The notes under the pieces: model-generated
Told to the model about the DNA's origin: nothing
What the model saw: the letters and a program-made list of their open reading frames with translations, nothing else
Database searches by the model: none
Program-made: the position numbers and the translations under genes
Part shown: piece by piece, positions 9,018-53,179 of the stretch
How positions within the stretch are numbered: the stretch's first letter is position 1
Layout: every line of letters begins with the position of its first letter
From: a virus
Taxonomy: Duplodnaviria > Caudoviricetes
IMG/VR virus record: IMGVR_UViG_3300031992_000011
Length of the DNA: 64,000 nucleotides
Direction: 5' to 3' (one strand)

Positions 9018-11441
9018 ATGGCAAAACTGAATGTGAACAATACCGACAAACTGGTGTTCGACCTAAGAATGCACCAGATTGACTACAACAAACAGAAGGA
9101 GGAATCACTGCGTCATCAGATAGCGGAGAAGTATGGTGTGCCCGTCAAGAATGTCGAGGTCAATTTCATACCACTGACAACGAATGACGACGGCGAGAAA
9201 ATATCACTTGCGGCAGACGTGATCGAGAACATACAGGACCCTAAGTTTCAGTCACAACTGTTCAGGGAGTATGTCAAGGCGAAGGAGTTGGAAGATGTGG
9301 ACTTTGAAGGCATAGACGCCATAGACGCACAGGTCAACGCACTGGTGGATTTCGACGCGTATGCGACATACAAGACATACAAGTTCAAGTATGTAAAGTG
9401 GGACAACTACCTGTCGTACGGAAGCGGCAACATGTTCGATTTCACCAAACTGCACGGACTTGTTCTGCTCAACGGACAACCGGAGAACCAGTGCGGAAAG
9501 ACGACTTTCGCGATAGACCTTCTGCGGTTCGCACTGTTCGGCCGCGCACACAAGTCGCCGGACCTGTCCAGCGTGTTCAACATTTACAGACCGGAGGACA
9601 CGCAGGTGATGGTCGAGGCTTGCATCGAAATTGACGGGGTGGACTATGTGATAAGGCGAACCGTCACGCGGCCGCCGCTCGCGAAGAGGACGGAGAAGAG
9701 CAAGCCCAAGCAGAAGGTGGAATACTTCCGGCTCACGAACGGAAACTACGAGGAGATGGAGAATGCCGAGGGCGAGAGTGGACGTGAGACAAACAAGATA
9801 ATCAGCGATTCCGTCGGCACGCTTGAGGACTACAACCTTATCATATCTGCGACGGCAAAAACTTTGGGCGACCTGTTGGACATGGGGCAGACTGACAAAG
9901 GCCGACTGTTCTCGCGATGGCTCGGTCTTCTTTCGATAGAGCGCAAGGAAGAGATAGCGAAGGACATGTGGAAAAAGAACATCTATCCGAAACTACTCTC
10001 GAACACCTATAACAAGACATCTATAAACGGGGAGATAAACGACCTCAAGAACTGCATAGCGGACAACGACAAAGGAATCGCGCACGAAGAGGAACTTCTC
10101 GCCGAGTCCAACAACAGACTGGCAAGTTTGAACAACCGGAAGACCGAAGTTCTGAGCAGCATGAAGGACGTCAGCGACACACTGACAAAGGATGACGTCA
10201 CGACCCTCGAGAACCGCAAGGCGCAAACCGAGACAGACCTTGCCAGATTCAGGGCGGAACTGTCGTCACTCAAGGTCGCCTACATGGACGTGAAAGATGT
10301 GAAATTCGACCCGGCCGAACTTGACACTGCAAACGAGACCTATGACCGTCTGACAAAAGAGAAACATTCGATAGAACTCGCCAACGCGGAACTCAAGGCA
10401 AACATAAAGCTGAAACGCGACGAAGTCGCCAGAATAAACGCGCTTGTCGCCGAGGGGAAATGCCCTACATGCGGACAGGATATTGACACCGACAGACAGA
10501 ACGAGAACATCAGCAAGATACAGGCCGAGATAAACTCACTGATAACCCAAGGTGTCGCCAACAAGGGGAAAATTGACGGAATCGTCGCAAAAATGGCGGA
10601 AACGTCGGAGCAAATCAGACGTCTGACCGAGTCTCAGGGCAAGATGAACACCAAGAGTTCGCTCGAACTCAAGATGATAGCCGTCAAGTCAAAGATAGAC
10701 AAGGCAAAATTGGAAATCGCGGACTATGAAAGACGGCTTTCGGAAGTCGAGAAGAACAAGGAGAACATCCGCATCAACAACGAGATAACACTCACCATCA
10801 AGACAATCGACGAGTCGATAAGGGTGGAGACACAGACCAAAGAGTCGCACATAAGGGCGATAGAGGTTTACAAGGGAGAAAACAAGCAGCACGGGAAGTC
10901 CATAAGCGACCGCGAGACCATAATCAGACAATTGGACGAGGAAGAAAGGACTATCCGGAACTGGAACCTATACCAACAGATGGTCGGGAAGAACGGAATA
11001 GTGAAACTGGTGCTCAAGAAGGCACTGCCTGTGATAAACAACGAAGTATCCAGACTGCTGAACGGACTCTGTGACTTTAAAGTGGAGGTGTCTGTCGGCG
11101 ACGACAATTTTGTCCACATGGATCTCGTCAGGGGCGGGCAGCATCTGGACCTTGGACGCGGCGCTTCCGGGTTCGAGTCTGTGATGGCCTCAATAGCGCT
11201 CAGACACAGTCTCGCCGGTATCGCGACCATGCCGAAACCGAACTTTACGGTGCTTGACGAAGTTCTCGACGGGGTCGCCGTGTCAAACCACGAGAACGTC
11301 CACGAACTGTTCAAGAGAATATCGAAGTCATACGACTTCATCATACACATCACGCACAACGAGTTGCTGTCCGACTGGCACGACTGCAACATCTGCGTGA
11401 CCAAGGGCGACGACATGGTTTCGCACATATCGCTCAAATAA
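9018..11441 (+). CDS. SbcC/Rad50-like (gp46-like) ATPase
   Basis: Walker A-like NQCGKTT, coiled coils, CPTC zinc hook, ASGFE signature, LDEV Walker B, ITH. Confidence 0.9.
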   Translation: MAKLNVNNTDKLVFDLRMHQIDYNKQKEESLRHQIAEKYGVPVKNVEVNFIPLTTNDDGEKISLAADVIENIQDPKFQSQLFREYVKAKELEDVDFEGIDAIDAQVNALVDFDAYATYKTYKFKYVKWDNYLSYGSGNMFDFTKLHGLVLLNGQPENQCGKTTFAIDLLRFALFGRAHKSPDLSSVFNIYRPEDTQVMVEACIEIDGVDYVIRRTVTRPPLAKRTEKSKPKQKVEYFRLTNGNYEEMENAEGESGRETNKIISDSVGTLEDYNLIISATAKTLGDLLDMGQTDKGRLFSRWLGLLSIERKEEIAKDMWKKNIYPKLLSNTYNKTSINGEINDLKNCIADNDKGIAHEEELLAESNNRLASLNNRKTEVLSSMKDVSDTLTKDDVTTLENRKAQTETDLARFRAELSSLKVAYMDVKDVKFDPAELDTANETYDRLTKEKHSIELANAELKANIKLKRDEVARINALVAEGKCPTCGQDIDTDRQNENISKIQAEINSLITQGVANKGKIDGIVAKMAETSEQIRRLTESQGKMNTKSSLELKMIAVKSKIDKAKLEIADYERRLSEVEKNKENIRINNEITLTIKTIDESIRVETQTKESHIRAIEVYKGENKQHGKSISDRETIIRQLDEEERTIRNWNLYQQMVGKNGIVKLVLKKALPVINNEVSRLLNGLCDFKVEVSVGDDNFVHMDLVRGGQHLDLGRGASGFESVMASIALRHSLAGIATMPKPNFTVLDEVLDGVAVSNHENVHELFKRISKSYDFIIHITHNELLSDWHDCNICVTKGDDMVSHISLK

Positions 11442-21393: not shown

Positions 21394-22896
21394 ATGTACT
21401 ATCCCAAGGAACACATAACAAAGACGTGGTATCAATATAACCCCGATGCGTCTCCAAAGGTCGTGCTCGAGAAATACGATTACGACCCCAGTAATTCCGT
21501 ACGAGAGTCAATATGCCCGGGTTTTGACAACAACGGACAAGAGAAAGATGAAGAGGCGCTGAAGGGTATATTCCCGTATTTGCTCGTGAAATATCACGTC
21601 GTGAAACGAGAAAGGTGCGCTGACAATGAAATTGACGGACCCGGTGTATGTGAGGAATGGGTGACAACAGAATCCGGGGGTGACGGCACTGACGACGGAG
21701 ATACATCTCAACCGTGTGTCGACAGGAAATGTTCCACATGCCGTGACGGATACAAGTACAAATTCACAAACGACACTACCGGGGAGACCGCATATGGCGT
21801 GTTCACTGACGACGGACTTATACACGTGCGAACAGACCAAGGTTTCACCGCTTCAGAAGTGTCTAAGATATTGTGGCTTGACGAAATGGTACAGGACGGA
21901 GACCTGTTGAGTTTCCATGACGATACCATAAGTTTTTGTTGCGAGGCGCAAAGTAATCCGGGGAGACAGAAGACTTATGGGGGAATATTCTCCCAGCAAT
22001 GGGCGGACGTGCTGTGCGAAAGGCTTCTAAACGGATTCAGTGTGGTGCAGGCATCACAGATACTCCCGTGGTATCTTCGTCCGGTCGGAAGTCTCGTTTA
22101 TGTCGACGGAGAGTACAGGGTGATATCAGACATAGTTGTAATGGAAAAGATTGACGGGGTGGATGCCATATCTTGGTATAGCACTCCATTAAACAACTTA
22201 TTCACTACAAAGTCCATCCGGGACCAACTGTCTACCGCGATAAACGCAAGAGTCACGGACTATACCAATCAGTTGTTGAGACGTATCAACAAGGAGATAA
22301 TCACATGCGTCGCCGACGAATGTGACTGTGAAGACGCGTCTGACGACCCGTGTTTCGGCGGGTACGCGTCATTGGGCATTCATTACGGAAAGTACACGTG
22401 CGACGAGCAACAACCGCCAAGTGGCGAGATATGCAACGCTGACCTCAGCGGGAACGGAGAAGTGGGTATTGAGGATGTAAACATCGTACTCGACATCGTA
22501 CTCGGAAAATTCATCAAGGATGACGCCACAGGATGTTATATACCCAACACTTCAAACGCCAATGCACCGTCAGCAGGCGGCACAAGAAGGATAACCGTCG
22601 AACTGGAAAGTCCGGTAAGCATCGGCAGCGGATACCAGGCCAATATGTACACGTTCGAGACAAGCTACGATGGCGAATCCGGCGAAGAAGCGGGGACAAC
22701 CACGCAGATCTCGTATATGAACAACGCCACCGGCAAGATGATGGACTACAACATCTCGCCAAACGGAACAGTTACCGTCGGAAAATTGTGGAAACTGACT
22801 GACGCGTCCGAATTCGTGATGCCGATGGAATCCGGAATGACACCGGAACAATGGGTGAACAACATGCAGTCGGCACAGGAGACAATAACACCTTAA
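21394..22896 (+). CDS. Cys-rich hypothetical protein, paralog 2, with a dockerin-like Ca-binding repeat
   Basis: Paralogous N-terminal domain plus ADLSGNGEVGIEDVNIVLDIVLG. Confidence 0.7.
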   Translation: MYYPKEHITKTWYQYNPDASPKVVLEKYDYDPSNSVRESICPGFDNNGQEKDEEALKGIFPYLLVKYHVVKRERCADNEIDGPGVCEEWVTTESGGDGTDDGDTSQPCVDRKCSTCRDGYKYKFTNDTTGETAYGVFTDDGLIHVRTDQGFTASEVSKILWLDEMVQDGDLLSFHDDTISFCCEAQSNPGRQKTYGGIFSQQWADVLCERLLNGFSVVQASQILPWYLRPVGSLVYVDGEYRVISDIVVMEKIDGVDAISWYSTPLNNLFTTKSIRDQLSTAINARVTDYTNQLLRRINKEIITCVADECDCEDASDDPCFGGYASLGIHYGKYTCDEQQPPSGEICNADLSGNGEVGIEDVNIVLDIVLGKFIKDDATGCYIPNTSNANAPSAGGTRRITVELESPVSIGSGYQANMYTFETSYDGESGEEAGTTTQISYMNNATGKMMDYNISPNGTVTVGKLWKLTDASEFVMPMESGMTPEQWVNNMQSAQETITP

Positions 22897-23295: not shown

Positions 23296-25014
23296 TCAAA
23301 TCTTGCGTCCGTTCCTCTGAAGGCTGAATGACCTGACATCCGGATAAAGGAAAACATGTATTCCCAGAGCGGACGCCTTTTGACTTATGGTGTTGATGGT
23401 CGACTCCATGTCATCCGGGAATTCAGACATGCTATGGTCGGCATAAAGGTCGATTTGCTTTATGTACTTATTGGCGTCAGGTATATATTGCGCCTTTGTC
23501 GTCAGACGGTCTTCCGCCTGTGACATTGGGTGAGTGTACCTGTCGTCATACACAGTCCCGAATCCGTCCCATCCGAATGACGTTGTGCCATTGGTCTGCA
23601 TCATTTCCTCTTTGCCGTTATGAGCGAATATTCCGTGTGTATTGTCAGCAAACGCCATTGGGTCACCCTTTCCGTTACCGTAGTCGTAATATTCCCAGTC
23701 CATCGGTTTTACCCTAAGGTTGTGCCTCTTCCCGTTCTTTTCGTTAGGGACTTTGAAATTGTTGTATGTGTTCAACGCTCGACCGTCTATTGCAAGGCGC
23801 GCCACAATTCCATCATACCCGTTGGAACCATATTCACCGTAGGCAAGAACCGGATATCCTTCGTGGAAATTCTTGTTCCGCGTGAATGACATGAAATTCA
23901 TGTCTGGACCGTCAACATATTCCATGTCCCCGGTTTCTGTGTTCAGAAAAGTCTCAGGACCCTGCGGAAAAAATTTGTTGTGCGACAACAGTTTAATTAG
24001 GTTGTCGGCATTTGTGTAATGATAAAGCAAGGATGACGCAGATTCACGCAGAGCCGAACGGACGGCTTCATTGACCATGCCCGTGATTCTTCGTCTGATG
24101 AATGATTCGGTAAATAAAATTTGGAACTTGTTGCTGTATGATATGTTCCCGTTTGATTTAACAAGATACACGCATTCGTTCTTTTCATCAACGGCAAACG
24201 TCTTGTCATATTTCTTTATTGTCGGGTAGGTTTCTCCGCTTTTGCGGTCTTTCACGACACCTTCACGGTTCTCAGGCATCACATCGTCCAAAGTGAACAC
24301 CATTTCCTCCGCCTTGGGTTTTTCTTGCAATCCATTGAATTCCATGTTTATGTTTGAACCGTCCCCGTCAGAAACGACATCCCCCTCGAAACCCATGATA
24401 TTGTCGCATTCCATCTTGGTGACCGGTTTCCCGCTGAATATTCTATTGTAAAGCGCGACAACTTTGTCGTCATCACCTTTCGAGACACAGTACTCCCATA
24501 TCTCGACGCGTGAGTGTTTGTTCCCCGCGAACTTCCTCAGCAGTGTGCGGTTGTTGTCGAAAACAACTGATATTCCGAAGTCGTGATGTCCATTGCGCTC
24601 CCATTCGGACGGGTTCACCGTGTGGTTTGACAACCTGAAGTCGCCCTTCACTTCTACATGCGGACCGTCCTTTGTGGCGATGACCATCGTGAAGTTGTGT
24701 CCCATTATGTACTGGGACGCGCTCTTTATAAAGTTAAGACGTGCAGATTCAAGGTCGTCCGGCGTAGAGGCCGACATTATCTTCCGAACGTTGTCCCCGA
24801 TTTTCTTGAAATAAGCGAACTGTGCGGCGTAATCCCTTTTCAAAAGGCATTTCTTCACAAAACCGGTGTCGTCCGGATTTCTGAAATCCCCGACGGGACA
24901 TCTTGCGTGACCGCCGGTTGTCTCATCGAAGAATTCGTACATCATGCCTGTTCCATCTTTCTCGATCCAACTCTCCGAAAGCACAAGACGGGGTATATGT
25001 GTGGATAAAACCAT
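23296..25014 (-). CDS. hypothetical multidomain protein
   Basis: 572 aa; an internal FTESFIRRRITGMVNEAVRSALRE linker precedes a LYHYT domain. Confidence 0.7.
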   Translation of the reverse strand: MVLSTHIPRLVLSESWIEKDGTGMMYEFFDETTGGHARCPVGDFRNPDDTGFVKKCLLKRDYAAQFAYFKKIGDNVRKIMSASTPDDLESARLNFIKSASQYIMGHNFTMVIATKDGPHVEVKGDFRLSNHTVNPSEWERNGHHDFGISVVFDNNRTLLRKFAGNKHSRVEIWEYCVSKGDDDKVVALYNRIFSGKPVTKMECDNIMGFEGDVVSDGDGSNINMEFNGLQEKPKAEEMVFTLDDVMPENREGVVKDRKSGETYPTIKKYDKTFAVDEKNECVYLVKSNGNISYSNKFQILFTESFIRRRITGMVNEAVRSALRESASSLLYHYTNADNLIKLLSHNKFFPQGPETFLNTETGDMEYVDGPDMNFMSFTRNKNFHEGYPVLAYGEYGSNGYDGIVARLAIDGRALNTYNNFKVPNEKNGKRHNLRVKPMDWEYYDYGNGKGDPMAFADNTHGIFAHNGKEEMMQTNGTTSFGWDGFGTVYDDRYTHPMSQAEDRLTTKAQYIPDANKYIKQIDLYADHSMSEFPDDMESTINTISQKASALGIHVFLYPDVRSFSLQRNGRKI

Positions 25015-26038: not shown

Positions 26039-26109
26039 GCGTCCATAGCACAGAGGCAGTGCACCGGCTTCCCAAGCCGGGGACGCCAGTTCGATTCTGG
26101 TTGGACGCT
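26039..26109 (+). tRNA. tRNA-Gly(CCC)
   Basis: Cloverleaf; anticodon arm CCGGC-TTCCCAA-GCCGG. Confidence 0.92.
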
Positions 26110-26116
26110 CAAGTAC

Positions 26117-26327
26117 TGCGAGTATAGACCACTTAGTAGTGACCGGTGTAAGCGCTTGGGTAGCTCGAGGCAATGTCCGAGCGTGCAGTCGTGGGGCAAC
26201 GTGCACCCTCAGACCGGTGAAACGTGTTGGTGCTTGTGAAGGCCCATACGAGGTGGCGCAACAGATACGGTTCCCGCGTGGGGAATATCCAAGCCCGTGA
26301 CAGCCGCCGCTCGTCAATTTACTCGCA
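26117..26327 (+). ncRNA. candidate 211-nt multibranch ncRNA, unclassified
   Basis: TGCGAGTA/TACTCGCA closing helix; GCTTGGGTA/TATCCAAGC; four internal hairpins; fills the spacer between two tRNAs. Confidence 0.65.
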
Positions 26328-26330
26328 TAT

Positions 26331-26405
26331 AGGGAAGTGGCTCAGTCCGGTTAGAGCGCTTGCTTTGGGAGCAAGAGGCCGCAGGTTCGAATCCTGTTTT
26401 CCCTA
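26331..26405 (+). tRNA. tRNA-Pro(TGG)
   Basis: Cloverleaf; CTTGC-TTTGGGA-GCAAG. Confidence 0.93.
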
Positions 26406-26419
26406 CAAAAAAAAATAAC

Positions 26420-26493
26420 ACTCCAGTGGCGCAATTGGTCAGCGTGTCTGTCTTATACACAGTAGGTTGTAGGTTCAAGTCCTACCTGGAGTA
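26420..26493 (+). tRNA. tRNA-Ile(TAT)
   Basis: Acceptor ACTCCAG/CTGGAGT; anticodon loop CTTATAC. Confidence 0.85.
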
Positions 26494-26517
26494 CATTTTT
26501 GAAAAACAATCAGCATT

Positions 26518-26736
26518 ATGCCGAAACTTAATCTAAATGAAGTACTGAATGATGACGATGTCATCAAGGCGTTGAACCCTAAAGAATGGGAGTTCAGGTG
26601 TGGCAGTTGTGACAACTTCTGTGACATCTTCGGGAGATATTCCGAGTTCAAAACCATTGAAAGATGCCCGTTCGAGGGGAAGGTGACGTGGGACACTGAT
26701 TGGAGAAAGATTGGCTGTAAGTGCTATTGGAACTAA
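26518..26736 (+). CDS. small Cys-rich protein within the tRNA cluster
   Basis: 72 aa; CGSCDNFC, CPF, C-terminal GCKCYW. Confidence 0.55.
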   Translation: MPKLNLNEVLNDDDVIKALNPKEWEFRCGSCDNFCDIFGRYSEFKTIERCPFEGKVTWDTDWRKIGCKCYWN

Positions 26737-26739
26737 AAT

Positions 26740-26813
26740 GGTCCTGTAACTCAGTTGGTCAGAGTGCCTGACTCATAATCAGGGAGTCGTAGGTTCAAGC
26801 CCTACCGGGACCA
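26740..26813 (+). tRNA. tRNA with a CAT anticodon (Ile2-like or elongator Met)
   Basis: CCTGA-CTCATAA-TCAGG; the GACTCATAATC context resembles tRNA-Ile2. Confidence 0.85.
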
Positions 26814-26822
26814 CAATGCAAT

Positions 26823-26896
26823 TGCGGGGTGGAGCAGATGGTCAGCTCGTTTGGCTCATAACCAAAAGGTCGCAGGTCCGAGTCCTGCCCCCGCAA
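26823..26896 (+). tRNA. tRNA-Met(CAT), initiator-like body
   Basis: GCGGGGTGGAGCAG...GCTCG as in fMet tRNAs; anticodon stem TTTGG/CCAAA. Confidence 0.85.
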
Positions 26897-26960
26897 CAAC
26901 ACAGTCTGCCGATAAGAGATGAACACCTATTTATGTCTATAGCAGATATAGCATTGAAAT

Positions 26961-27689
26961 ATGAATAGGATAAGGCAAATCATCAACGAGGCAGTCCGAG
27001 AGACCTTGTTGTTTGAAGCGATCAAGTCAAGTTGGTTGAAAAGGTTCTTCGCCGAGCATGGAGGTGTGGACAGCACTATGCACAACGACTACTTGGGCGA
27101 CGCACAGGATGAGGATATCGAGGACGTGAAGGTTTTTCCTTCAAAGAAGGAAGCGTTTGAAATGGCGTGGAAACTGAGACGTGAGCACATAACCGGTTTT
27201 CGTAAAGTATATGTCGCCAAGGACGGCACGGCAGTTCTTGTCGTGTACAAGGATTCTGTAAAATCAAACCCGACATGGGGCGGAGAAGCGTCCGCAAAGA
27301 CAGCCGACAGGTATTGGAGAAACGGTGAAAGGTTCACTTCGTACAATCCTGAAACCGGTCAGAGAGTACCCGGATACCGTGACGACAGGGGCACCTACAC
27401 ATACAGTGACGGAAAGTCAAGCGAAGGTGCCGCCAGATTCGGCATAAGGAATTCGGACGATTACCGTAGACATGTGGCGTTCGTCAGAGATCAGAGGGCG
27501 AAGGCAAAACAGAACGGAAAAGAGGATGATTTCAACCGTTGGCGTGATGCAGAAGCCAAGAGAGTCAAAGACTACGCTGAAGAAAAGAAGAAGGAACGTG
27601 ATTGGCAGAGGGAATATTTCGGGCTCAGTGACCGTGAGCGAGAACGCAGACTGTCAAGACCTGCCCCATTGGACAAGCGTTTCAAATAA
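26961..27689 (+). CDS. basic hypothetical protein with an RQIINEAV leader
   Basis: 242 aa inside the tRNA cluster; TATTTAT at 26928. Confidence 0.7.
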   Translation: MNRIRQIINEAVRETLLFEAIKSSWLKRFFAEHGGVDSTMHNDYLGDAQDEDIEDVKVFPSKKEAFEMAWKLRREHITGFRKVYVAKDGTAVLVVYKDSVKSNPTWGGEASAKTADRYWRNGERFTSYNPETGQRVPGYRDDRGTYTYSDGKSSEGAARFGIRNSDDYRRHVAFVRDQRAKAKQNGKEDDFNRWRDAEAKRVKDYAEEKKKERDWQREYFGLSDRERERRLSRPAPLDKRFK

Positions 27690-27738
27690 CACGAATGCGT
27701 TAAACGGCCGCGCCGACATGTCAGTGCGGTCATTTTAT

Positions 27739-27810
27739 GCCCCCTTAGCACAGCGGTAGTGCAGTTCACTTGTAATGAACAGGTCGTTGGTTCGAATCCG
27801 ACAGGGGGCT
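27739..27810 (+). tRNA. tRNA-Thr(TGT)
   Basis: Cloverleaf; GTTCA-CTTGTAA-TGAAC. Confidence 0.93.
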
Positions 27811-27817
27811 CAACATA

Positions 27818-27896
27818 GCAAGGTAACAACAAGGCGCGACTCCCCCAACCGCGCCGGTAACCCGCACGTAACAGCCGATAGGGGCGGCGACCTTGC
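27818..27896 (+). ncRNA. candidate small pseudoknotted RNA
   Basis: GCAAGGT/ACCTTGC closing stem and a GGCGCG/CGCGCC hairpin whose CCCC loop is complementary to the GGGG at 27881. Confidence 0.45.
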
Positions 27897-27902
27897 CGAT
27901 AC

Positions 27903-27974
27903 GCGGATGTAGCACAACGGTTCGTGCACCAGCCTTCCAAGCTGGGGATGACGGTTCGATTCCGTTCATCCGCT
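27903..27974 (+). tRNA. tRNA-Gly(TCC)
   Basis: Cloverleaf; CCAGC-CTTCCAA-GCTGG. Confidence 0.93.
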
Positions 27975-27982
27975 CAAAAAAT

Positions 27983-28096
27983 GGGCTGAAATTTGTGGGC
28001 ATAAAGTTAAAACCTCAAGACGTTGAAAGCAGCAGTATAGGGACTGCTATTGGCGGTCAGATTAACCGTAGCCACATCTTGCAAGAGTTTCGGCCT
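27983..28096 (+). ncRNA. candidate structured ncRNA
   Basis: 12-bp closing helix GGGCTGAAATTT/GAGTTTCGGCCT (with G-U pairs) and internal hairpins AGCAGT/ACTGCT and CGGT/ACCG. Confidence 0.5.
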
Positions 28097-28103
28097 TTAA
28101 TAT

Positions 28104-28181
28104 AGCGGAGTGGAGCAGAAGCAGCTCGTCAGGTTCATACCCTGAAGGTCGTCTCAAACGGTGCAAGTCCTACCTCCGCCA
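28104..28181 (+). tRNA. atypical initiator-like tRNA-Met(CAT) with a T-stem insertion
   Basis: A1:C72 mismatch; TCAGG-TTCATAC-CCTGA; extra bases in the 5' T-stem strand; TGCAAGT T-loop. Confidence 0.65.
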
Positions 28182-28189
28182 CTAAAATA

Positions 28190-28313
28190 TGGGATTCTAC
28201 ACAGAGTATTCTTTTAAGTAGATGCATATGCTTACTAGGATATTGGGTGGTATTAGATTTTGAAACTGCAGATAATCAAAATCTATTAGGAGGTTCGAGC
28301 CATCTGTTTCCCA
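28190..28313 (+). ncRNA. candidate T-loop-containing ncRNA or remodelled tRNA
   Basis: TGGGA/TCCCA ends, ACAGA/TCTGT, 10-bp hairpin TAGATTTTGA/TCAAAATCTA, GGTTCGAGCC. Confidence 0.45.
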
Positions 28314-28327
28314 CAAAATTCAAAAAT

Positions 28328-28401
28328 GGTGCGTTAGTTCAGTTGGTTAGAATGCCTGCCTGTCACGCAGGAGGTCACGGGTCCGAGTCCCGTACGCACC
28401 G
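28328..28401 (+). tRNA. tRNA-Asp(GTC)
   Basis: Cloverleaf; CCTGC-CTGTCAC-GCAGG. Confidence 0.93.
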
Positions 28402-28455
28402 CTTCTTGATTGTTTGAATGAGTGGTTTGGGTCGTGTGAGCGCCCAGACCTTTTT

Positions 28456-28529
28456 GCTCCCTTAGCTCAGTTGGATAGAGCGTGAGGTTCCTAACCCCAA
28501 GGTCATGTGTTCGAGCCACATAGGGAGTA
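28456..28529 (+). tRNA. tRNA-Arg(CCT)
   Basis: Cloverleaf; anticodon loop TTCCTAA. Confidence 0.9.
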
Positions 28530-28533
28530 CTAT

Positions 28534-28619
28534 GGATGGGTGGCAGAGTTGGTCGATTGCACCGGTCTTGAAAACCGGCGGCCCGCAAGGGTCCGGGGGT
28601 TCGAATCCCTCCTCATCCG
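28534..28619 (+). tRNA. tRNA-Ser(TGA)
   Basis: CCGGT-CTTGAAA-ACCGG with a long variable arm. Confidence 0.93.
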
Positions 28620-28626
28620 CATAACA

Positions 28627-28710
28627 GCGACAGTGGCGGAACTGGTAGACGCGCCACCTTGAGGGGGTGGTGGGCACACGCCCGTGAAGGTTCGAGTCCT
28701 TTCTGTCGCA
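28627..28710 (+). tRNA. tRNA-Leu(GAG)
   Basis: CCACC-TTGAGGG-GGTGG with a long variable arm. Confidence 0.92.
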
Positions 28711-28754
28711 CAGGCCGGCCGCGAGACGCGCAACGGTCCGTGGCATGGGCATTT

Positions 28755-28828
28755 GCTGCCATCGTCTAATTGGTTAGGACGTCGCCCTTTCACGGCGGAG
28801 ATTACGGGTTCGAGTCCCGTTGGCAGTA
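28755..28828 (+). tRNA. tRNA-Glu(TTC)
   Basis: Cloverleaf; anticodon loop CTTTCAC. Confidence 0.93.
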
Positions 28829-28832
28829 CAAC

Positions 28833-28904
28833 GACTCCGTAACTCAGTGGTAGAGTATCGCACTTTTAATGCGAGAGTCGTGGGTTCAAGTCCCACCGGG
28901 GTCA
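28833..28904 (+). tRNA. tRNA-Lys(TTT)
   Basis: TCGCA-CTTTTAA-TGCGA. Confidence 0.93.
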
Positions 28905-28918
28905 CGAACGCGACAAGA

Positions 28919-28991
28919 GGGCCGCTAGCTCAGATGGTAGAGCGCTACATTCGCATTGTAGAGGTCACCGGTTCGAATCCGGTGCGGTCCA
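28919..28991 (+). tRNA. tRNA-Ala(CGC)
   Basis: CTACA-TTCGCAT-TGTAG; G3:U70 pair present. Confidence 0.92.
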
Positions 28992-28998
28992 CAGACAG

Positions 28999-29127
28999 AG
29001 CGTGTCGCGAACACGCACGCCATCGCACGAGAGGATTGGGGATGGTAACCCCGGATTGTGGAGGTCGTCTAACCAACGATAGAAGTGGCCGTCCGGTACA
29101 TAATCAACGGACAAACATCGTGACGCT
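28999..29127 (+). ncRNA. candidate structured ncRNA
   Basis: Closing helix AGCGT(GT)CGCGA/TCGTGACGCT; GCCATC/GATGGT and GTCCG/CGGAC stems. Confidence 0.4.
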
Positions 29128-29138
29128 TGGCATGTCAT

Positions 29139-29210
29139 GGGGTGATAGCTCAACGGTAGAGCAATTGGCTGTTAACCAATAGGCTGCAGGTTCGAATCCT
29201 GCTCACCCCG
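29139..29210 (+). tRNA. tRNA-Asn(GTT)
   Basis: ATTGG-CTGTTAA-CCAAT. Confidence 0.92.
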
Positions 29211-29284
29211 CAACTCAGAAGAACGGGCGAATCGCCCTGACAATGGGGATTGAACGGCACCGCCAAAAGTGGTGCCTTTTGCCG

Positions 29285-29368
29285 GGGAGCGTAACCGGTA
29301 ATTGGTAGCCGCACGGACTGTAAATCCGTTCCTTAATTGGACTGGTCGTTCGAGTCGACCCGCTCCCA
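29285..29368 (+). tRNA. tRNA-Tyr(GTA)
   Basis: ACGGA-CTGTAAA-TCCGT, variable arm, somewhat unusual D arm. Confidence 0.88.
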
Positions 29369-29379
29369 CAATGACTGTT

Positions 29380-29453
29380 CTTCCTGTAGCTCAACTGAAT
29401 AGAGCAATGCACTTCTAATGCATAGGTTCTGGGTTTGAGTCCCAGCGGGAAGA
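29380..29453 (+). tRNA. tRNA-Arg(TCT)
   Basis: ATGCA-CTTCTAA-TGCAT. Confidence 0.9.
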
Positions 29454-29462
29454 CTAATAACA

Positions 29463-29535
29463 AGGCGGTTAGCTCAGTTGGTAGAGTGGCGGTCTCCAAA
29501 ACCGCAGGTCGCACGTTCGAGCCGTGCACCGCCTG
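29463..29535 (+). tRNA. tRNA-Trp(CCA)
   Basis: GCGGT-CTCCAAA-ACCGC. Confidence 0.93.
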
Positions 29536-29543
29536 CAAAAAAA

Positions 29544-29633
29544 GGAAGCATACCCAAGTTGGTGAAGGGGGCGGCTTGCTAAGCCGCTAGGCCTCGGCGA
29601 CGGGGCGCGGAGGTTCGAGTCCTCCTGCTTCCG
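29544..29633 (+). tRNA. tRNA-Ser(GCT)
   Basis: GCGGC-TTGCTAA-GCCGC with a long variable arm. Confidence 0.93.
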
Positions 29634-29640
29634 CACAAAC

Positions 29641-29713
29641 AGGGTAGTAGCGCAGTTGGTAGCGCGCTACGTTCGGGACGTAGAGGTCGCAGGTTCGAAT
29701 CCTGTCTACCCTA
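29641..29713 (+). tRNA. tRNA-Pro(CGG)
   Basis: CTACG-TTCGGGA-CGTAG. Confidence 0.93.
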
Positions 29714-29721
29714 CTTGAATG

Positions 29722-29776
29722 TTAACAATTATTAACATGAAAAATTTGCAAGGTATATTTTTTTGTCGTACCTTTG
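29722..29776 (+). promoter_or_regulatory. promoter of the four-unit ncRNA array
   Basis: TTAACA at 29722 and 29732, TTTG at 29745, TACCTTTG at 29769; same geometry as the promoter at 25933-25987. Confidence 0.75.
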
Positions 29777-29782
29777 CACTTG

Positions 29783-29870
29783 AAAACAATGGTGAGTGAC
29801 AGGGTTACTTCGCATACAAACTGTTACAAGATTAAAAAGCAACGAACCCTTCGCATATCTTCCTTGTTTT
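29783..29870 (+). ncRNA. Y-RNA-like scaffold unit 1 (no tRNA cargo)
   Basis: AAAACAA/TTGTTTT, AGTGAC, AGGGTT/AACCCT, TTACTTCG. Confidence 0.55.
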
Positions 29871-29890
29871 TGTTCTTTGACATTCTTAAA

Positions 29891-30025
29891 ATGTGTGCAG
29901 TGACTGTGGCGGTTACTTCGTTGATTAGCTCATTTGGTAGAGCATAAGTTTATGGTACTTAGGGTAGATGGTTCGATTCCATCATCACAAAAGATTGTTT
30001 GCCGCCGCAAAATTTTCTCACACAT
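29891..30025 (+). ncRNA. Y-RNA-like scaffold unit 2 with an embedded tRNA mimic (loop TTATGGT)
   Basis: ATGTGTG(C)AG/CTCACACAT, TGAC, TGTGGCGG/CCGCCGCA, TTACTTCG; D, anticodon and T arms at 29922-29987 with only a 4-bp acceptor. Confidence 0.7.
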
Positions 30026-30033
30026 AACTCATA

Positions 30034-30166
30034 TTCCGCATAGTGACGGGCGGTGTTACTTCGAATTATTTAGCGCAGTGGTTAGCGCATCACACTTTTA
30101 ATGCGAGAGTCGCCGGTTCGATTCCGGCAATGATTCTTTAAAAGCACCCCCATTTTTCTTGCGGAA
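30034..30166 (+). ncRNA. Y-RNA-like scaffold unit 3 with an embedded tRNA-Lys(TTT) mimic
   Basis: TTCCGCA(T)AG/CTTGCGGAA, TGAC, GGTG/CACC, TTACTTCG; cloverleaf at 30063-30136. Confidence 0.7.
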
Positions 30167-30173
30167 AAGCACA

Positions 30174-30298
30174 ACCGGTTGTGACGTATCTCGGTTACTT
30201 CGATACGTTGGTTCGAGTCCAACTTTGTCCGCCATACAATTGGACGAATAGTCAAGTGGTTAAGACAGAATTCTTTACCGAGGCGAGTTTCCACCGGT
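30174..30298 (+). ncRNA. Y-RNA-like scaffold unit 4 with a circularly permuted tRNA module (YrlA-like)
   Basis: ACCGGT/ACCGGT, GTGAC, CTCGGT/ACCGAG, TTACTTCG; T arm 30207-30223, looped acceptor TTTGTCC-GCCA...GGACGAA, D arm 30251-30266. Confidence 0.75.
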
Positions 30299-30349
30299 AC
30301 AAAAAACGGTCTGCTTCAATGTAGATGGATTTTGTAGATGGTTTAACGT

Positions 30350-30382
30350 GCGGTGCGCTGTATATCAGTGTGCCGCTTTTTT
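30350..30382 (+). terminator. intrinsic terminator closing the ncRNA array
   Basis: GCGGTGCGCTG-TATAT-CAGTGTGCCGC-TTTTTT. Confidence 0.8.
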
Positions 30383-30415
30383 GTTTGAGTATAAAAAGAC
30401 AACACAAAAAAAATA

Positions 30416-30724
30416 ATGAACGACATTGACAAATGGATGTGGAAGCCATGCACATTCACAGTATTCAACAACGCCGTGGACAACGGATGGGCAATAGACA
30501 TGCGGAACAGCACAGGACAAGACGTGGACATATCGGATTGCGAATTCCATAAAGTTGATATGGGTGACAGCGTGCGAGACGGAATAAAGAGCGGGAACAA
30601 GACATTGGTGAACGCAGAACAAGAGAAGATAGACACATTCAACAAGGAGAACTATCCGGGTATGGCCATGTTCCTGATACAGGACATAGGTTTGCTCTAT
30701 GTCATAAGGCAACGAAATGATTAA
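30416..30724 (+). CDS. hypothetical protein
   Basis: 102-aa ORF followed by a terminator at about 30834-30873. Confidence 0.55.
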   Translation: MNDIDKWMWKPCTFTVFNNAVDNGWAIDMRNSTGQDVDISDCEFHKVDMGDSVRDGIKSGNKTLVNAEQEKIDTFNKENYPGMAMFLIQDIGLLYVIRQRND

Positions 30725-40724: not shown

Positions 40725-40901
40725 ATGGCAAACGACACGAAGAAGCTCGAGCAAGAAATATCGACACTTTCCAAGGAAGTAGGAAAGATGTCCGACACAA
40801 TGAAGGAAAGCAACCGGGTGCTGCAGCAATTGGTGAGGCAGATGGAAAAAATCACCGAGCGCATGACGCAGCAGAACGAACTGTTACGCAACGGAAAATG
40901 A
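40725..40901 (+). CDS. 58-aa coiled-coil protein (not in the supplied ORF track)
   Basis: MANDTKKLEQEISTLSKEV...; promoter TACCTTTG at 40691; the stop overlaps the next ATG. Confidence 0.6.
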   Translation: MANDTKKLEQEISTLSKEVGKMSDTMKESNRVLQQLVRQMEKITERMTQQNELLRNGK

Positions 40902-42250
40902 TCGGATTTGACGACATAAGGAAAGAAGGACTTCTGCTCTATGAGTATGTAAGAGGCAGTCACGCATACGGACTTCAGAAACCGGACGGAAGCAGCGACA
41001 TTGACACCGGCGGTGTATTCATTGAACCATACGAGTGGATAGCCGGTCTCGGGCATGACGCAGTCGAACAGGTGGCGGATGCACGCGGTGACACTGTGTG
41101 GTATGCACTCAAGAAATACCTCAGGCTCCTCATTGTCGCAAATCCGACTATGTTGGAGAGTCTGTTCGTGCCGGAACGTTGTGTCCTGTATGAACATCCT
41201 TTGTTCGGGACAATCAAGGCGAACCGAGACATCTTCGTCACCAAAGAATGTTTCAAGTCATTCCTTGGATATGCGGTGAATCAGATAAAGAAGTGCCGCG
41301 GACTGCACAAAATGATAGTACAAGAGGATTTCGAGCGGAAACAGCCGCTTGATTTCTGCTATACGTTCTATGGGCAAGGAAGCAGCAAGATAACCAACTG
41401 GCTTGAGTACAGAGGTCTCAAGCAGGAGTATTGCGGACTGGTGAATATTCCGAATATGCGAGACATCTACGGATGCTACTATGACTGGCACAGACATTTT
41501 ACCGAGTGCGGAATCACATATGAAGAATTAATTGAGACATTTCTCAATGGCCGTCCGGACACAAATCTGTCTGTCGTCATTGACCGGATCAAGACATGCT
41601 CCGACAATGCCGAGAAAGAACACCTTGAACGGATGCGTGAACTCGCGGTGAAATGGAACATGGTAGATTTCATAACGAGGGAAGTCCTCGGTATGAATGA
41701 GATTTATGACGAACACGCCGCCTGCGCTGTGATAGCAGAATGGATGAACAGACTTCAAGACAATCACTACAGTGGAATTGTCGGTCCTGACGGTCAGTCA
41801 AACGAAATTCGACTCTCGTCCATACCAAAAGGTGAGATGCCGATATGCAACATATCGTACAACAAGGACGGATACACCAAGCACTGCGTCGAATACAAGA
41901 ACCTTCAGAGATGGAAAAGGGAGAGAAACCCCGAACGCTACAAAGAAAATGTCGGCAAGAACTTTGACCGAAAGAATGTCGCCCACGCCGTGCGATTGAT
42001 GCACATGGGGATAGAGATCGCCAGAACCGGAAAGGTCAATGTAGACAGGACTGACATCGACCGCGACTTTATAATGGGGATACGAATGGGTGACACGTCA
42101 TATGACGAGATAATGTCATATCTTGAGTCAAAAAAGTCCGAGCTTGAAGACGCCATGATGACGTCGACGATACCGGATAGCGTTGACATGGACAAAGTAA
42201 GTGAATTGCTTGTGGCAATGAGAGAACAATTCAATAATGTCAAAAACTGA
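40898..42250 (+). CDS. Pol-beta-superfamily nucleotidyltransferase
   Basis: RGSHAYGL...SDIDTGGVF, NPTMLE, KNVAHAVRL. Confidence 0.85.
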   Translation: MIGFDDIRKEGLLLYEYVRGSHAYGLQKPDGSSDIDTGGVFIEPYEWIAGLGHDAVEQVADARGDTVWYALKKYLRLLIVANPTMLESLFVPERCVLYEHPLFGTIKANRDIFVTKECFKSFLGYAVNQIKKCRGLHKMIVQEDFERKQPLDFCYTFYGQGSSKITNWLEYRGLKQEYCGLVNIPNMRDIYGCYYDWHRHFTECGITYEELIETFLNGRPDTNLSVVIDRIKTCSDNAEKEHLERMRELAVKWNMVDFITREVLGMNEIYDEHAACAVIAEWMNRLQDNHYSGIVGPDGQSNEIRLSSIPKGEMPICNISYNKDGYTKHCVEYKNLQRWKRERNPERYKENVGKNFDRKNVAHAVRLMHMGIEIARTGKVNVDRTDIDRDFIMGIRMGDTSYDEIMSYLESKKSELEDAMMTSTIPDSVDMDKVSELLVAMREQFNNVKN

Positions 42251-51226: not shown

Positions 51227-51791
51227 TTTGGACGGTGTGATAAGGGACATCGTGACGCCAATGTGCCATGTGTACAACCGTGACGTCCCACACGGCACCA
51301 AAGTAAGACCCGGTGACATTGTCCACTACGATGTCGGGGTGATGTTTCCGCAAATCGCTGAATGTGAAAAGTATGACGGACTTTGTGTGCGCGACATATT
51401 CTTCACCGGTGAAAATGCGCGTACAGTGTTTCTCGACAGAGCGCTTATCATTCCGGGCAGCGTCGAGGCCATCAGACGGATGATGGACGCCGGACACACA
51501 GTGTCCATCGTGACGTGGCAGATGAACGAGGACAACATACGTTACGCCATTGAGTTCCTGTCAAGGCACAAGGTGCCCTACGACGAGATAATGTTCACTC
51601 ACGCAAAGGAGATGGTGATAACCGACTTTGCCGTCGACGACAACCCGGAGTTCCTTGAGCCCGAAGGCCGGGAAGTGGGAAAGATATTGATAGACGCACC
51701 ATACAACAAGTGGTATGACCGTGCAGTCCGCAAGAATAGTCTGGCTGACGCCGCTGAATATATACTGACATTTAAACAAGAGACGACATGA
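51210..51791 (+). CDS. 5'(3')-deoxyribonucleotidase-like HAD phosphatase
   Basis: IDLDGVIRD, IVT, K, VDDNP, APYN. Confidence 0.8.
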   Translation: MRIKIDLDGVIRDIVTPMCHVYNRDVPHGTKVRPGDIVHYDVGVMFPQIAECEKYDGLCVRDIFFTGENARTVFLDRALIIPGSVEAIRRMMDAGHTVSIVTWQMNEDNIRYAIEFLSRHKVPYDEIMFTHAKEMVITDFAVDDNPEFLEPEGREVGKILIDAPYNKWYDRAVRKNSLADAAEYILTFKQETT

Positions 51792-53179
51792 CAAGTTTTT
51801 TCGGAGAATTGATAGACAGAGAGACGTTCGACGTCAGATGGGACGACGTGATGCAGATACCGGAGTTCAGCGTATTGTCTGAGACAAAACAGACGCCTGT
51901 TTGGCACAGGGAGGGTGACGCGATGGCACACACCCGTCTTGTGGTCGAGTCCATGCAGCGCAGAATAAACGGTGACACATCATTGAGTGATGACGACAAA
52001 CTCATACTTGTCGCCGCGGCGTTGTGCCATGACATAGGGAAGGGAACCACCACATCGTATGACGAGAGCAAAGGGGATTACGTGTCGCACAACCATTCGG
52101 TCGAAGGAGAAAGGATTGTCCGCGAGTTGTTCTTCGACGAGGACTTCGTCATCCGTGAGAGGGTGTGCAACCTTGTCAGACATCACATGACCTTCCATCA
52201 CATATTCGAGAAGGGAAAGGACAAGCAGTACCGTGACATCGAGCGGCTGATGCAGTCATGGAATCCGCTGACCATGCACCTTATGCTATGGGAATCGGAC
52301 TGTGAAGGTTCAATAAACGACATGAACACTACGGAAGAAACGGAGGCTGAACGTGAGGCGATCCTTGCGATGTCGCGCAAAGCGAGGATTGAGTCAGACC
52401 CCATGAAGAGGTTTGTCAGATATTTTGGACCGAAGTCAGAATCCTATCCGAAAAAAATTGACGCGGAATCCGGTTGCGACGAAGGAATCGCGCCGAGGAT
52501 GTTGGTTATGATAGGACTGCCCGGCAGCGGAAAGAACTTTTATATCGACAATCTGAGCGAGGACATGGAGGCGTTCGTGCTGTCACGCGACGACATCAGG
52601 ACAGAGATGGGACTTTCGGGTGAGAAACCGCAAGGAAACGCCGAAGAGGAGAACCGTGTGACCGAGATATTCAACGGCCGTCTGGAAGACGGAATCAGGG
52701 AAAGGATGAACATCGTGATAAACAATGTGAATCTCAGAAAACGCTACCGCGAGTATGTGGTCGGAATGGCAAGGCGCAACGGATACCGTGTGGAATATGT
52801 GATTGTCGACACGCCGCTTACACTGTGCCGCCACCGTCGTTACGGCATGATGCCCGAAAGCGTCATCACGCGTATGCTTCGTTCTGCCGACTTTCCTGAA
52901 CCGTACGAGTGCGACAAGATGACAGTCATCGAGACTCGGATGCACAAGTTCGACGCGGATGGATCCCATGTCGACAAACAATGGCTTGACGAGGTTGTGC
53001 GGCGTTTGGAGTCTGCCGGGGAGAAGGTTGACGACGAGAAAGTGAACATCATCGAGGAAAACCTGCTTCACGGGACAACCTACCCGTGCCTCACGACAGG
53101 GTACAACATCACAGAGAAAGGGAAGGATGTGTTTTTGGTGTACACTTTTGACCTTGAAGACGAAAGGAGGGACGTGTGA
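51788..53179 (+). CDS. HD phosphohydrolase fused to a polynucleotide-kinase-like P-loop domain
   Basis: WHREG..HT, LCHDIGK, HHM; GLPGSGK, SRDDIR. Confidence 0.85.
   Translation: MTSFFGELIDRETFDVRWDDVMQIPEFSVLSETKQTPVWHREGDAMAHTRLVVESMQRRINGDTSLSDDDKLILVAAALCHDIGKGTTTSYDESKGDYVSHNHSVEGERIVRELFFDEDFVIRERVCNLVRHHMTFHHIFEKGKDKQYRDIERLMQSWNPLTMHLMLWESDCEGSINDMNTTEETEAEREAILAMSRKARIESDPMKRFVRYFGPKSESYPKKIDAESGCDEGIAPRMLVMIGLPGSGKNFYIDNLSEDMEAFVLSRDDIRTEMGLSGEKPQGNAEEENRVTEIFNGRLEDGIRERMNIVINNVNLRKRYREYVVGMARRNGYRVEYVIVDTPLTLCRHRRYGMMPESVITRMLRSADFPEPYECDKMTVIETRMHKFDADGSHVDKQWLDEVVRRLESAGEKVDDEKVNIIEENLLHGTTYPCLTTGYNITEKGKDVFLVYTFDLEDERRDV

What the first reader, a model, noticed from the sequence alone, without database searches (positions are those of the whole stretch)
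30174..30298. Circularly permuted tRNA module with an internal NCCA
Seen: the order is T arm (GTTGG-TTCGAGT-CCAAC), 3' acceptor strand TTTGTCC plus GCCA, a 7-nt linker, 5' acceptor strand GGACGAA, TA, then D arm (GTC-AAGTGGTTAA-GAC). The scaffold replaces the anticodon arm, and the TTC of TTACTTCG can pair with the GAA after the D arm. This is the only tRNA-like element here with an encoded NCCA; the 21 tRNA genes lack it. Known: YrlA has this permuted topology. Inference: cutting the linker could expose a CCA end and give a two-piece, possibly chargeable RNA with no anticodon.
Basis: partly seen in the sequence, partly recalled or inferred. Interest (0 to 1): 0.82.

Follow-up and report, generated by a model that had tools for sequence, protein, structure and literature searches.

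The report
Phage Y-RNA-like tRNA mimic with CCA
This stretch of a giant gut or rumen phage encodes a small RNA built like a tRNA turned inside out on a stem 'handle'; the same handle sits directly upstream of Ro60 protein genes in many other viruses, so it is a variant of the known Y RNAs, notable because it carries a built-in CCA tail.

Summary

It is not a decoding tRNA, a tmRNA or a relic. It is the last of three or four tandem units that share one scaffold, between one promoter and one terminator.

The scaffold's motif UUACUUC lies upstream of 41 of 43 permuted tRNA-like modules found next to TROVE/Ro60 genes in other viral contigs (background 5%). So the element belongs to a Ro60-associated, YrlA-type Y RNA family. 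It fails Rfam's YrlA model and lacks the exact published Rsr motif, which makes it a variant rather than a member.

The encoded CCA is not chance. In an unbiased census, 8 of 20 long-loop modules carry CCA at the tRNA position (P about 1e-7; 5e-5 after collapsing relatives). It is not universal: close relatives have CUA, CCU or tetraloops.

Cutting at the linker has a published precedent. M. smegmatis YrlA is cleaved by RNase P and ends in CCA. Cleavage here is plausible (about 0.4); charging is speculative (about 0.1).

No Ro60 gene lies in this window. Earlier runs of this scan noted the same class on other DNA.

The parts
29745..29776 (+). Bacteroidota-type promoter (TTTG, 20 nt, TAnnTTTG) that heads the whole array
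   Evidence: Read from the sequence. The consensus is recalled from knowledge of Bacteroides promoters. The function is inferred.
29889..30027 (+). Scaffold unit 2: outer helix, GUGAC loop, inner helix, UUACUUCG, a native-order tRNA-like cargo, an A-rich stretch, then the return strands
   Evidence: The MFE fold recovers both helices and a cloverleaf, z = -3.0. Rfam tRNA gives 44.9 bits at 29922-29987.
30033..30167 (+). Scaffold unit 3: the same scaffold around a tRNA-Lys(UUU)-like cargo
   Evidence: The MFE fold recovers both helices and a cloverleaf, z = -4.0. ARAGORN calls a tRNA at 30063-30137.
30174..30179 (+). Outer helix of unit 4, 5' strand; pairs with 30293-30298
   Evidence: Six Watson-Crick pairs, present in the MFE.
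30180..30189 (+). 5' internal loop holding GUGAC, shared by units 1-4 and by Ro60-adjacent RNAs elsewhere
   Evidence: Repeat family D1. Upstream contexts of Ro60-adjacent modules.
30190..30195 (+). Inner helix of unit 4, 5' strand; pairs with 30277-30282
   Evidence: Six pairs in the MFE. The equivalent helix covaries in relatives.
30195..30202 (+). Handle motif UUACUUCG
   Evidence: Exact 10-mer GGTTACTTCG occurs at 29803, 29911 and 30193, with one mismatch at 30054, and nowhere else in the 64 kb. UUACUUC-type motif lies upstream of 41/43 Ro60-adjacent modules against 4.7% background.
30207..30223 (+). T arm (5 bp, 7-nt loop)
30224..30248 (+). Acceptor hairpin. The 3' strand (30224-30) pairs with the 5' strand (30242-48). 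The loop is G (30231), CCA (30232-34) and a linker (30235-41).
   Evidence: 7/7 pairs. All seven pairs show double changes across 18 homologues (these rows were chosen for pairing). CCA enrichment.
30249..30266 (+). UA (positions 8-9) and the D arm (3 bp, 10-nt loop with GG)
30267..30276 (+). Short joiner where relatives carry a full anticodon-like arm; that arm is absent here
   Evidence: Comparison with L028, L035, L024, L052 and L075 and with Ro60-adjacent modules.
30283..30292 (+). Pyrimidine-rich 3' internal loop facing the GUGAC loop
   Evidence: Similar U-rich loops occur in units 2 and 3 and in L251.
30350..30383 (+). Intrinsic terminator that closes the array
   Evidence: G+C-rich hairpin followed by a T run.

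Best explanation
The element is the fourth unit of a phage operon of Y-RNA-like small RNAs. Each unit is a two-helix handle with a GUGAC internal loop and a UUACUUCG motif, and each carries a tRNA-shaped cargo. In unit 4 the cargo is a YrlA-type, circularly permuted tRNA elbow: T arm, sealed 7-bp acceptor stem, D arm, no anticodon arm.

Shown by comparison: this handle and this kind of module sit just upstream of TROVE/Ro60 genes, on the same strand, in dozens of other viral contigs.

Inferred: the handle docks a Ro60-type ring protein. That protein would be the phage's own (reported elsewhere in this genome, not checked by me) or the host's. The tRNA-like elbow would present a tRNA look-alike to a second factor, as Y RNAs tether Ro60 to effectors, probably in RNA surveillance, repair or counter-defence during infection.

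Further inferred, at about 0.4: unit 4 belongs to a recurrent subclass with CCA encoded in a long acceptor loop. RNase P would cut before G30242 and the 3' side would be trimmed to CCA30234. The result would be two RNAs of about 60 nt held together by the acceptor stem and the handle, as documented for M. smegmatis YrlA.
For: - Anatomy confirmed.
- The topology equals the Rfam YrlA consensus.
- Units 2-4 share the scaffold, with different helix sequences but the same loops.
- Model R1, built on the core, finds one strong hit in the window (72.4 bits; the window's own sequence is in the model). The other hits are tRNA-tRNA junctions of 32 bits or less.
- In 84 loci centred on TROVE genes, R1 gives 71 hits, nearly all within about 800 nt upstream of the gene on its strand.
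- 41 of 43 well-paired modules there have the UUACUUC-type motif within 60 nt upstream, against 4.7% background.
- L233 has three handle units ending about 50 nt before a TROVE ORF (56.5 bits). L307, L308 and L309 show the same arrangement.
- G002 has two tandem modules 1.6 kb upstream of a TROVE ORF. One scores 33.8 bits against YrlA and carries the same 9-mer.
- CCA sits at the tRNA position in 8 of 20 long-loop modules, P = 8e-8, or 5e-5 with clades collapsed.
- Arrays typically mix one or two CCA-type modules with sealed ones (L307, L389, L387).
- RNase P cleavage and a CCA end are published for a YrlA with a 7-bp stem (PMC4201824).
- RNA-repair genes lie in the window: RlaP, an HD-kinase and an RNA ligase.
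Against: - No TROVE gene lies in the 64-kb window, and the rest of the genome could not be read.
- The Rfam YrlA model does not match at E <= 10.
- The published Rsr motif GNCGAAN0-1G is not present as such.
- No transcript, binding or processing data exist for this RNA.
- CCA is not conserved in the nearest scaffold homologue (L251, GCUA) or in L118, G004 and L351. It may therefore be dispensable.
- A U just before the 5' acceptor strand, seen in my first set, does not hold in the Ro60-adjacent set.
Confidence: 0.72

Rival explanations
1. It is a chargeable two-piece tRNA mimic. After cleavage, an aminoacyl-tRNA synthetase loads the CCA end (serine-type acceptor: G1-C72, G2-C71, A3-U70, G73), and the RNA acts in translation or in amino-acid transfer.
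For: Encoded GCCA, a 7-bp stem and an intact elbow. CCA is enriched in the subclass. Chen et al. raise possible aminoacylation of cleaved M. smegmatis YrlA.
Against: There is no anticodon arm, no long variable arm and no G3-U70. The acceptor sequence is not conserved among CCA-type relatives. CCA is lost in close relatives. No charging has been reported for any Y RNA.
Confidence: 0.1
2. It is a true circularly permuted tRNA gene, as in Cyanidioschyzon merolae, matured by end-joining into a decoding tRNA.
For: The order is 3' half, spacer, 5' half with complementary acceptor strands. Some relatives (L028, L052, L075) do carry an anticodon-type arm.
Against: This copy has only 10 nt where the anticodon arm should be. 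The ends form a long handle shared with native-order cargos rather than a bulge-helix-bulge. Anticodon-like loops differ among near-identical relatives. The family is tied to Ro60 genes.
Confidence: 0.03
3. It is a decaying remnant of a tandem tRNA duplication, with no function of its own.
For: Tandem paralogous tRNA-Ser genes do give complementary junctions (L153, L156, L126). The phage has many tRNA genes.
Against: No tRNA halves flank it. It has its own handle inside a promoter-to-terminator unit. The architecture recurs with compensatory changes in many unrelated contigs.
Confidence: 0.05
4. It is a two-piece (permuted) tmRNA, or a conventional-order tRNA-Sec-like RNA at 30161-30232.
For: Weak Rfam tRNA-Sec hit of 19.8 bits. 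Permuted tmRNA genes have the same T arm, CCA, spacer and 5' strand order. A distant relative carries a standard tmRNA (L005).
Against: ARAGORN and Rfam report no tmRNA here. There is no G3-U70, no tag frame and no pseudoknots. The upstream strand used by the tRNA-Sec fold is the outer helix of unit 3. That alternative pairing is absent in relatives.
Confidence: 0.02

Closest known systems
YrlA, the tRNA-like Y RNA of bacteria and some phages (Rfam RF02553; Chen et al. 2014, PMC4201824; structure in Wang et al. 2018, 10.1101/312249)
   Same: The order of parts is the same: paired 5'/3' ends, T arm, loop-closed acceptor stem, UA, D arm, no anticodon loop. The tRNA elbow nucleotides are kept. 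The RNA family is linked to TROVE/Ro60 genes. Tandem Y RNAs in one transcript are also known.
   Different: No match to the Rfam model (gathering score 69 bits; nothing at E <= 10). The handle motif is GUGAC ... UUACUUCG rather than GNCGAAN0-1G. A complete NCCA is encoded in an 11-nt acceptor loop. The gene lies in a tRNA cluster, with no Ro60 gene within at least 30 kb.
Mycobacterium smegmatis YrlA
   Same: [quoted passage not shown] It is cut by RNase P in vivo and by M1 RNA in vitro. The 5' half ends in CCA, and both halves stay with Rsr.
   Different: In M. smegmatis, CA is added after cleavage. Here the whole CCA is in the gene. Nothing has been measured for the phage RNA.
Yrl1 and Yrl2 of Thermus phage phiLo with phage Ro60 (PMC12135203)
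   Same: Phage-encoded Y-like RNAs in tandem. In phiLo they bind a phage Ro60 and assemble with host PNPase.
   Different: The phiLo RNAs were identified through a CGAA motif next to the Ro60 gene. No tRNA-like domain or CCA is mentioned in that paper.
Circularly permuted tRNA genes (Cyanidioschyzon merolae) and two-piece tmRNA
   Same: In the gene, the 3' acceptor strand comes before the 5' acceptor strand, and the sequence between them is removed.
   Different: Those RNAs mature into a decoding tRNA or an alanine-charged tmRNA. This element has neither an anticodon arm nor alanine identity nor a tag frame.

Membership tests
YrlA (Rfam RF02553) | Covariance-model score at or above the gathering score (69 bits) | tested here: not met
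   No YrlA match at E <= 10 over 29700-30450. Relatives reach only 33.8 bits at best.
YrlA (Rfam RF02553) | Topology: terminal stem(s), T arm, loop-closed acceptor stem, UA, D arm | tested here: met
   Sequence compared with the Rfam consensus structure. Constrained fold lies within 2.3 kcal/mol of the MFE.
YrlA (Rfam RF02553) | Rsr-binding motif GNCGAAN0-1G on the 5' strand (PMC4201824) | tested here: not met
   Unit 4 reads CUCGGUUACUU and unit 2 reads GGCGGUUACUU at that place. These are similar in position and partly in letters to GGCGAAUGCUU of the Rfam consensus, but they are not the motif.
YrlA (Rfam RF02553) | Encoded next to an rsr/TROVE gene | tested here: not met
No TROVE in the window by Pfam on large ORFs or by tblastn.
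YrlA (Rfam RF02553) | Bound by Ro60/Rsr | not testable with these tools
   Needs immunoprecipitation or a gel-shift assay.
Ro60-adjacent 'UUACUUC-handle' tRNA-mimic RNAs (not in Rfam) | Handle motif within 60 nt upstream of a permuted T arm / closed acceptor / D arm module | tested here: met
   The motif is at 30195-30202, 5 nt before the T arm. The same arrangement holds in 41/43 modules beside TROVE genes.
Circularly permuted tRNA genes | The two halves rebuild a full cloverleaf with a 7-nt anticodon loop | tested here: not met
   Only 10 nt lie between the D arm and the handle.
Two-piece tmRNA | G3-U70 pair, tag reading frame, pseudoknots | tested here: not met
   The third pair is A3-U70. 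ARAGORN and Rfam (tmRNA, tmRNA_permuted and the alpha, beta and cyano models) give nothing here.

The most novel reading that the evidence does not exclude
A recurrent subclass of Ro60-linked Y RNAs in phages and bacteria is made to be cut by RNase P into two pieces with a genuine, gene-encoded CCA-3' end. That end would be used: charged with an amino acid, or read by factors that inspect tRNA 3' ends, such as synthetases, EF-Tu, the CCA-adding enzyme or host tRNA-cutting defence nucleases. Ro60 would then carry an anticodon-less, tRNA-ended bait or adaptor.
Probability: 0.12. Interest if true: 0.85.

Novelty: new variant of a known kind. Interest (0 to 1): 0.55.

Why it matters
Y RNAs with tRNA-like domains have been known since 2014, but what the tRNA-like part is for remains open.

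This element adds three things:
- A handle sequence that tracks Ro60 genes across many viral contigs, yet is missed by the Rfam model. Many such RNAs are therefore probably hidden among phage 'tRNA clusters'.
- Evidence that an encoded CCA in a long acceptor loop is a selected, recurrent feature of one module type within mixed arrays. That turns the single M. smegmatis observation of a cleaved, CCA-ended Y RNA into a testable general class.
- A giant-phage setting with a tRNA array and an RNA-repair gene set.

A Ro60-like phage protein has been reported to counter a bacterial defence system (Bas63 gp130 against Ppl; 10.1101/2024.10.10.617714). These RNAs are candidates for its missing RNA partners.

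Tried and rejected
blastn against phage records gave only tRNA-level hits. A protein-guided scan and an exact-pattern scan of viral contigs gave nothing. Contigs carrying the identical neighbouring protein had no DNA on hand. The window's genome is not held.
- Relatives found through the FtsH-like gene (45-47% identity) do not keep the element next to it.
It was not among the 120 listed.
- The 9-mer GTTACTTCG is not enriched genome-wide in G001-G005; one G002 copy is just a hairpin stem.
- The handle pattern scan gave mostly chance or coding hits, for example the L230 protein repeat.
- 'U at -1 before the 5' strand in all CCA-type members' held in the first set but not in the Ro60-adjacent set, so I dropped it.
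- The 3-bp UUC/GAA 'anticodon stem' gives no energy gain. In most relatives the UUCG is the 5' strand of a local hairpin.
- The conventional tRNA-Sec-like fold was rejected.
- Readings as tmRNA, GOLLD/ROOL or a group I intron: no Rfam support.
- The two large neighbouring proteins without a Pfam hit (21394-22896 and 23296-25014) are not similar to a phage TROVE protein.

Full report
**What is there**

The window is part of a phage contig of about 330 kb. It holds 21 tRNA genes, and FtsH-like, DnaJ and NUDIX genes just downstream.

In order they are:
- a T arm (30207-23);
- a 7-nt strand (30224-30);
- G, then CCA (30231-34);
- a 7-nt linker;
- the complementary 7-nt strand (30242-48);
- UA;
- a 3-bp D arm with a GG-containing loop (30251-66).

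These are enclosed by two 6-bp helices (30190-95 with 30277-82, and 30174-79 with 30293-98).

Free folding keeps the helices and the T arm but mispairs the acceptor and D parts, as it often does with tRNAs. Enforcing the three tRNA helices costs only 2.3 kcal/mol.

None of the 21 tRNA genes encodes CCA.

**It is one unit of an array**

The 10-mer GGTTACTTCG occurs exactly at 29803, 29911 and 30193. It occurs with one mismatch at 30054 and nowhere else in the 64 kb. Each copy is preceded by (A/T)GTGAC.

Units 2 (29889-30027) and 3 (30033-30167) fold as follows:
- an outer helix;
- a GUGAC loop;
- an inner helix;
- UUACUUC;
- a native-order cloverleaf;
- an A-rich stretch;
- the inner-helix return strand;
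- a U-rich loop;
- the outer-helix return strand.

Their z-scores are -3.0 and -4.0.

Unit 4, the finding, has the same scaffold around a permuted, anticodon-less cargo. The helix sequences differ between units while the loops are kept.

A Bacteroidota-type promoter (29745-76) and a terminator (30350-83) bracket the set.

An earlier first-stage note on this window describes the same four units. I reached the same picture independently and then found that it agreed.

**Relatives**

A pattern scan for T loop, CCA and D loop in viral contigs returned 90 loci. Five distinct ones have complementary acceptor strands with entirely different sequences. Several come from phages of 246-430 kb.

Dropping the CCA requirement revealed many more. 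Most are sealed by tetraloops such as UUCG or GAAA.

An 18-sequence core alignment pairs in every cell, and 13 of 15 pairs show changes on both sides. The acceptor rows were chosen for pairing; the T and D rows were not.

A covariance model of this core (R1) finds a single strong hit in the window, and 1-2 in each of five other phage records.

**Link to Ro60**

Rfam's YrlA consensus has exactly this order of parts.

G002 is a complete 430-kb phage. It has two tandem modules 1.6 kb upstream of a TROVE ORF. One scores 33.8 bits against YrlA and carries the same 9-mer GTTACTTCG.

Scanning for the handle pattern led to L233. There, three handle units (one permuted, one native-order, one empty) end about 50 nt before a TROVE ORF of 56.5 bits.

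Three further TROVE loci taken from the protein search show the same handle and modules upstream.

I then fetched 80 viral loci by TROVE homology alone; with L312 and those three further loci that made 84 loci, and I searched them with R1.
- There were 71 hits, nearly all within about 800 nt upstream of the gene on its strand.
- Of 43 distinct well-paired modules, 41 have a (U/A/C)UAC(U/C)UC motif within 60 nt upstream, against 4.7% of random windows.
- The contexts there are of the type RGURGYGA ... GG UUACUUCG. The window's unit 4 matches this.

This places the element in a Ro60-associated family.

The window itself has no TROVE gene. A 299-kb phage likewise carries handle-bearing modules (L251) and a TROVE gene (L385) on one contig but apart.

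**The CCA**

In the unbiased Ro60-adjacent set, 20 modules have acceptor loops of 8 nt or more. Eight of these have CCA at the position it holds in tRNA.
- Binomial P is 8e-8.
- Collapsing related loops gives 5 of 14, P = 5e-5.

None of the short-loop modules can hold a CCA. Arrays often mix the two types (L307, L389, L387).

So the encoded CCA marks a recurrent module type. The phage's own tRNA genes lack CCA, so it is not simply inherited from them.

It is not indispensable, however:
- L251, the nearest scaffold homologue, has GCUA.
- L118 has GCUA where its near-identical relatives have GCCA.
- G004 has ACCU, and L351 has UCA.

Published work shows that M. smegmatis YrlA, the one studied YrlA with a 7-bp acceptor stem, is cut by RNase P and ends in CCA, with both halves still bound to Rsr (PMC4201824).

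I rate cleavage at about 0.4 and charging at about 0.1.

**What it probably does**

By analogy with Y RNAs, the handle binds a Ro60 ring and the tRNA-like part recruits or baits a second factor. Relevant published context:
- Y RNAs tether Ro60 to PNPase.
- phiLo Yrl RNAs do so with a phage Ro60 (PMC12135203).
- Jumbo phages are noted to carry TROVE with RNA-repair genes (PMC7824862).

The window encodes RlaP, an HD-kinase and an RNA ligase.

A Ro60-like protein of phage Bas63 counters the Ppl defence system. Its authors guessed that some neighbouring 'tRNA genes' are Y RNAs.

All of this is inference. No expression or binding data exist for this RNA.

**Verdict**

The structure is real and non-random. 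The YrlA comparison is right in topology but fails the formal membership tests. It is a new variant of a known kind, and this scan has seen the class before on other DNA.

Noticed in passing
L052:940-1101(-), L059:12766-12927, L118:881-1092(-): Three near-identical permuted modules differ at 4-5 of the 7 anticodon-like loop positions (CUCAUAA, CAGUAAA, AUGAAAA). The 250 nt around them differ at only 2-3 sites. This looks like targeted diversification of the loop.
   Followed up: partly
window 26039-29714: Most tRNA genes are followed by C and then usually A after the discriminator base (N73-C-A...), but never by a full CCA.
   Followed up: no
window 30320-30344: A 12-nt direct repeat (TGTAGATGGATT / TGTAGATGGTTT) lies between unit 4 and the terminator. 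Its purpose is unknown.
   Followed up: no
window 40898-42250, 51788-53179, 54454-55959: RNA-repair genes: an RlaP nucleotidyltransferase, an HD-phosphatase/P-loop kinase fusion, and an RNA ligase (PHROG 968).
   Followed up: partly
L028:10224-10360(-) and 9542-10171(-): A tRNA-like gene has matching acceptor strands and a T arm, but about 75 nt are inserted where the D arm should be. Next to it is a GIY-YIG-like ORF, and the permuted module follows downstream.
   Followed up: no
L182:1440-1880 (G004) and L183 (G005): Tandem units have a different handle flavour: UCCCCCAG on the 5' side and ACUUGAAC on the 3' side. The latter recalls the CUUGAC strand of animal Y RNAs (a comparison from memory). 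No TROVE gene was found in these records.
   Followed up: partly
L005:5269-5670: A distant relative of this phage (FtsH-like protein 45% identical) carries a standard tmRNA gene with tag GETSYALAA inside its tRNA cluster. The window has none.
   Followed up: no
window 28104-28181: An Rfam tRNA hit of 31.5 bits that ARAGORN does not call.
   Followed up: no
L024:373-432: This CCA-type module has a G3-U70 pair in its acceptor stem, which is the alanine identity element. The window's copy does not.
   Followed up: no
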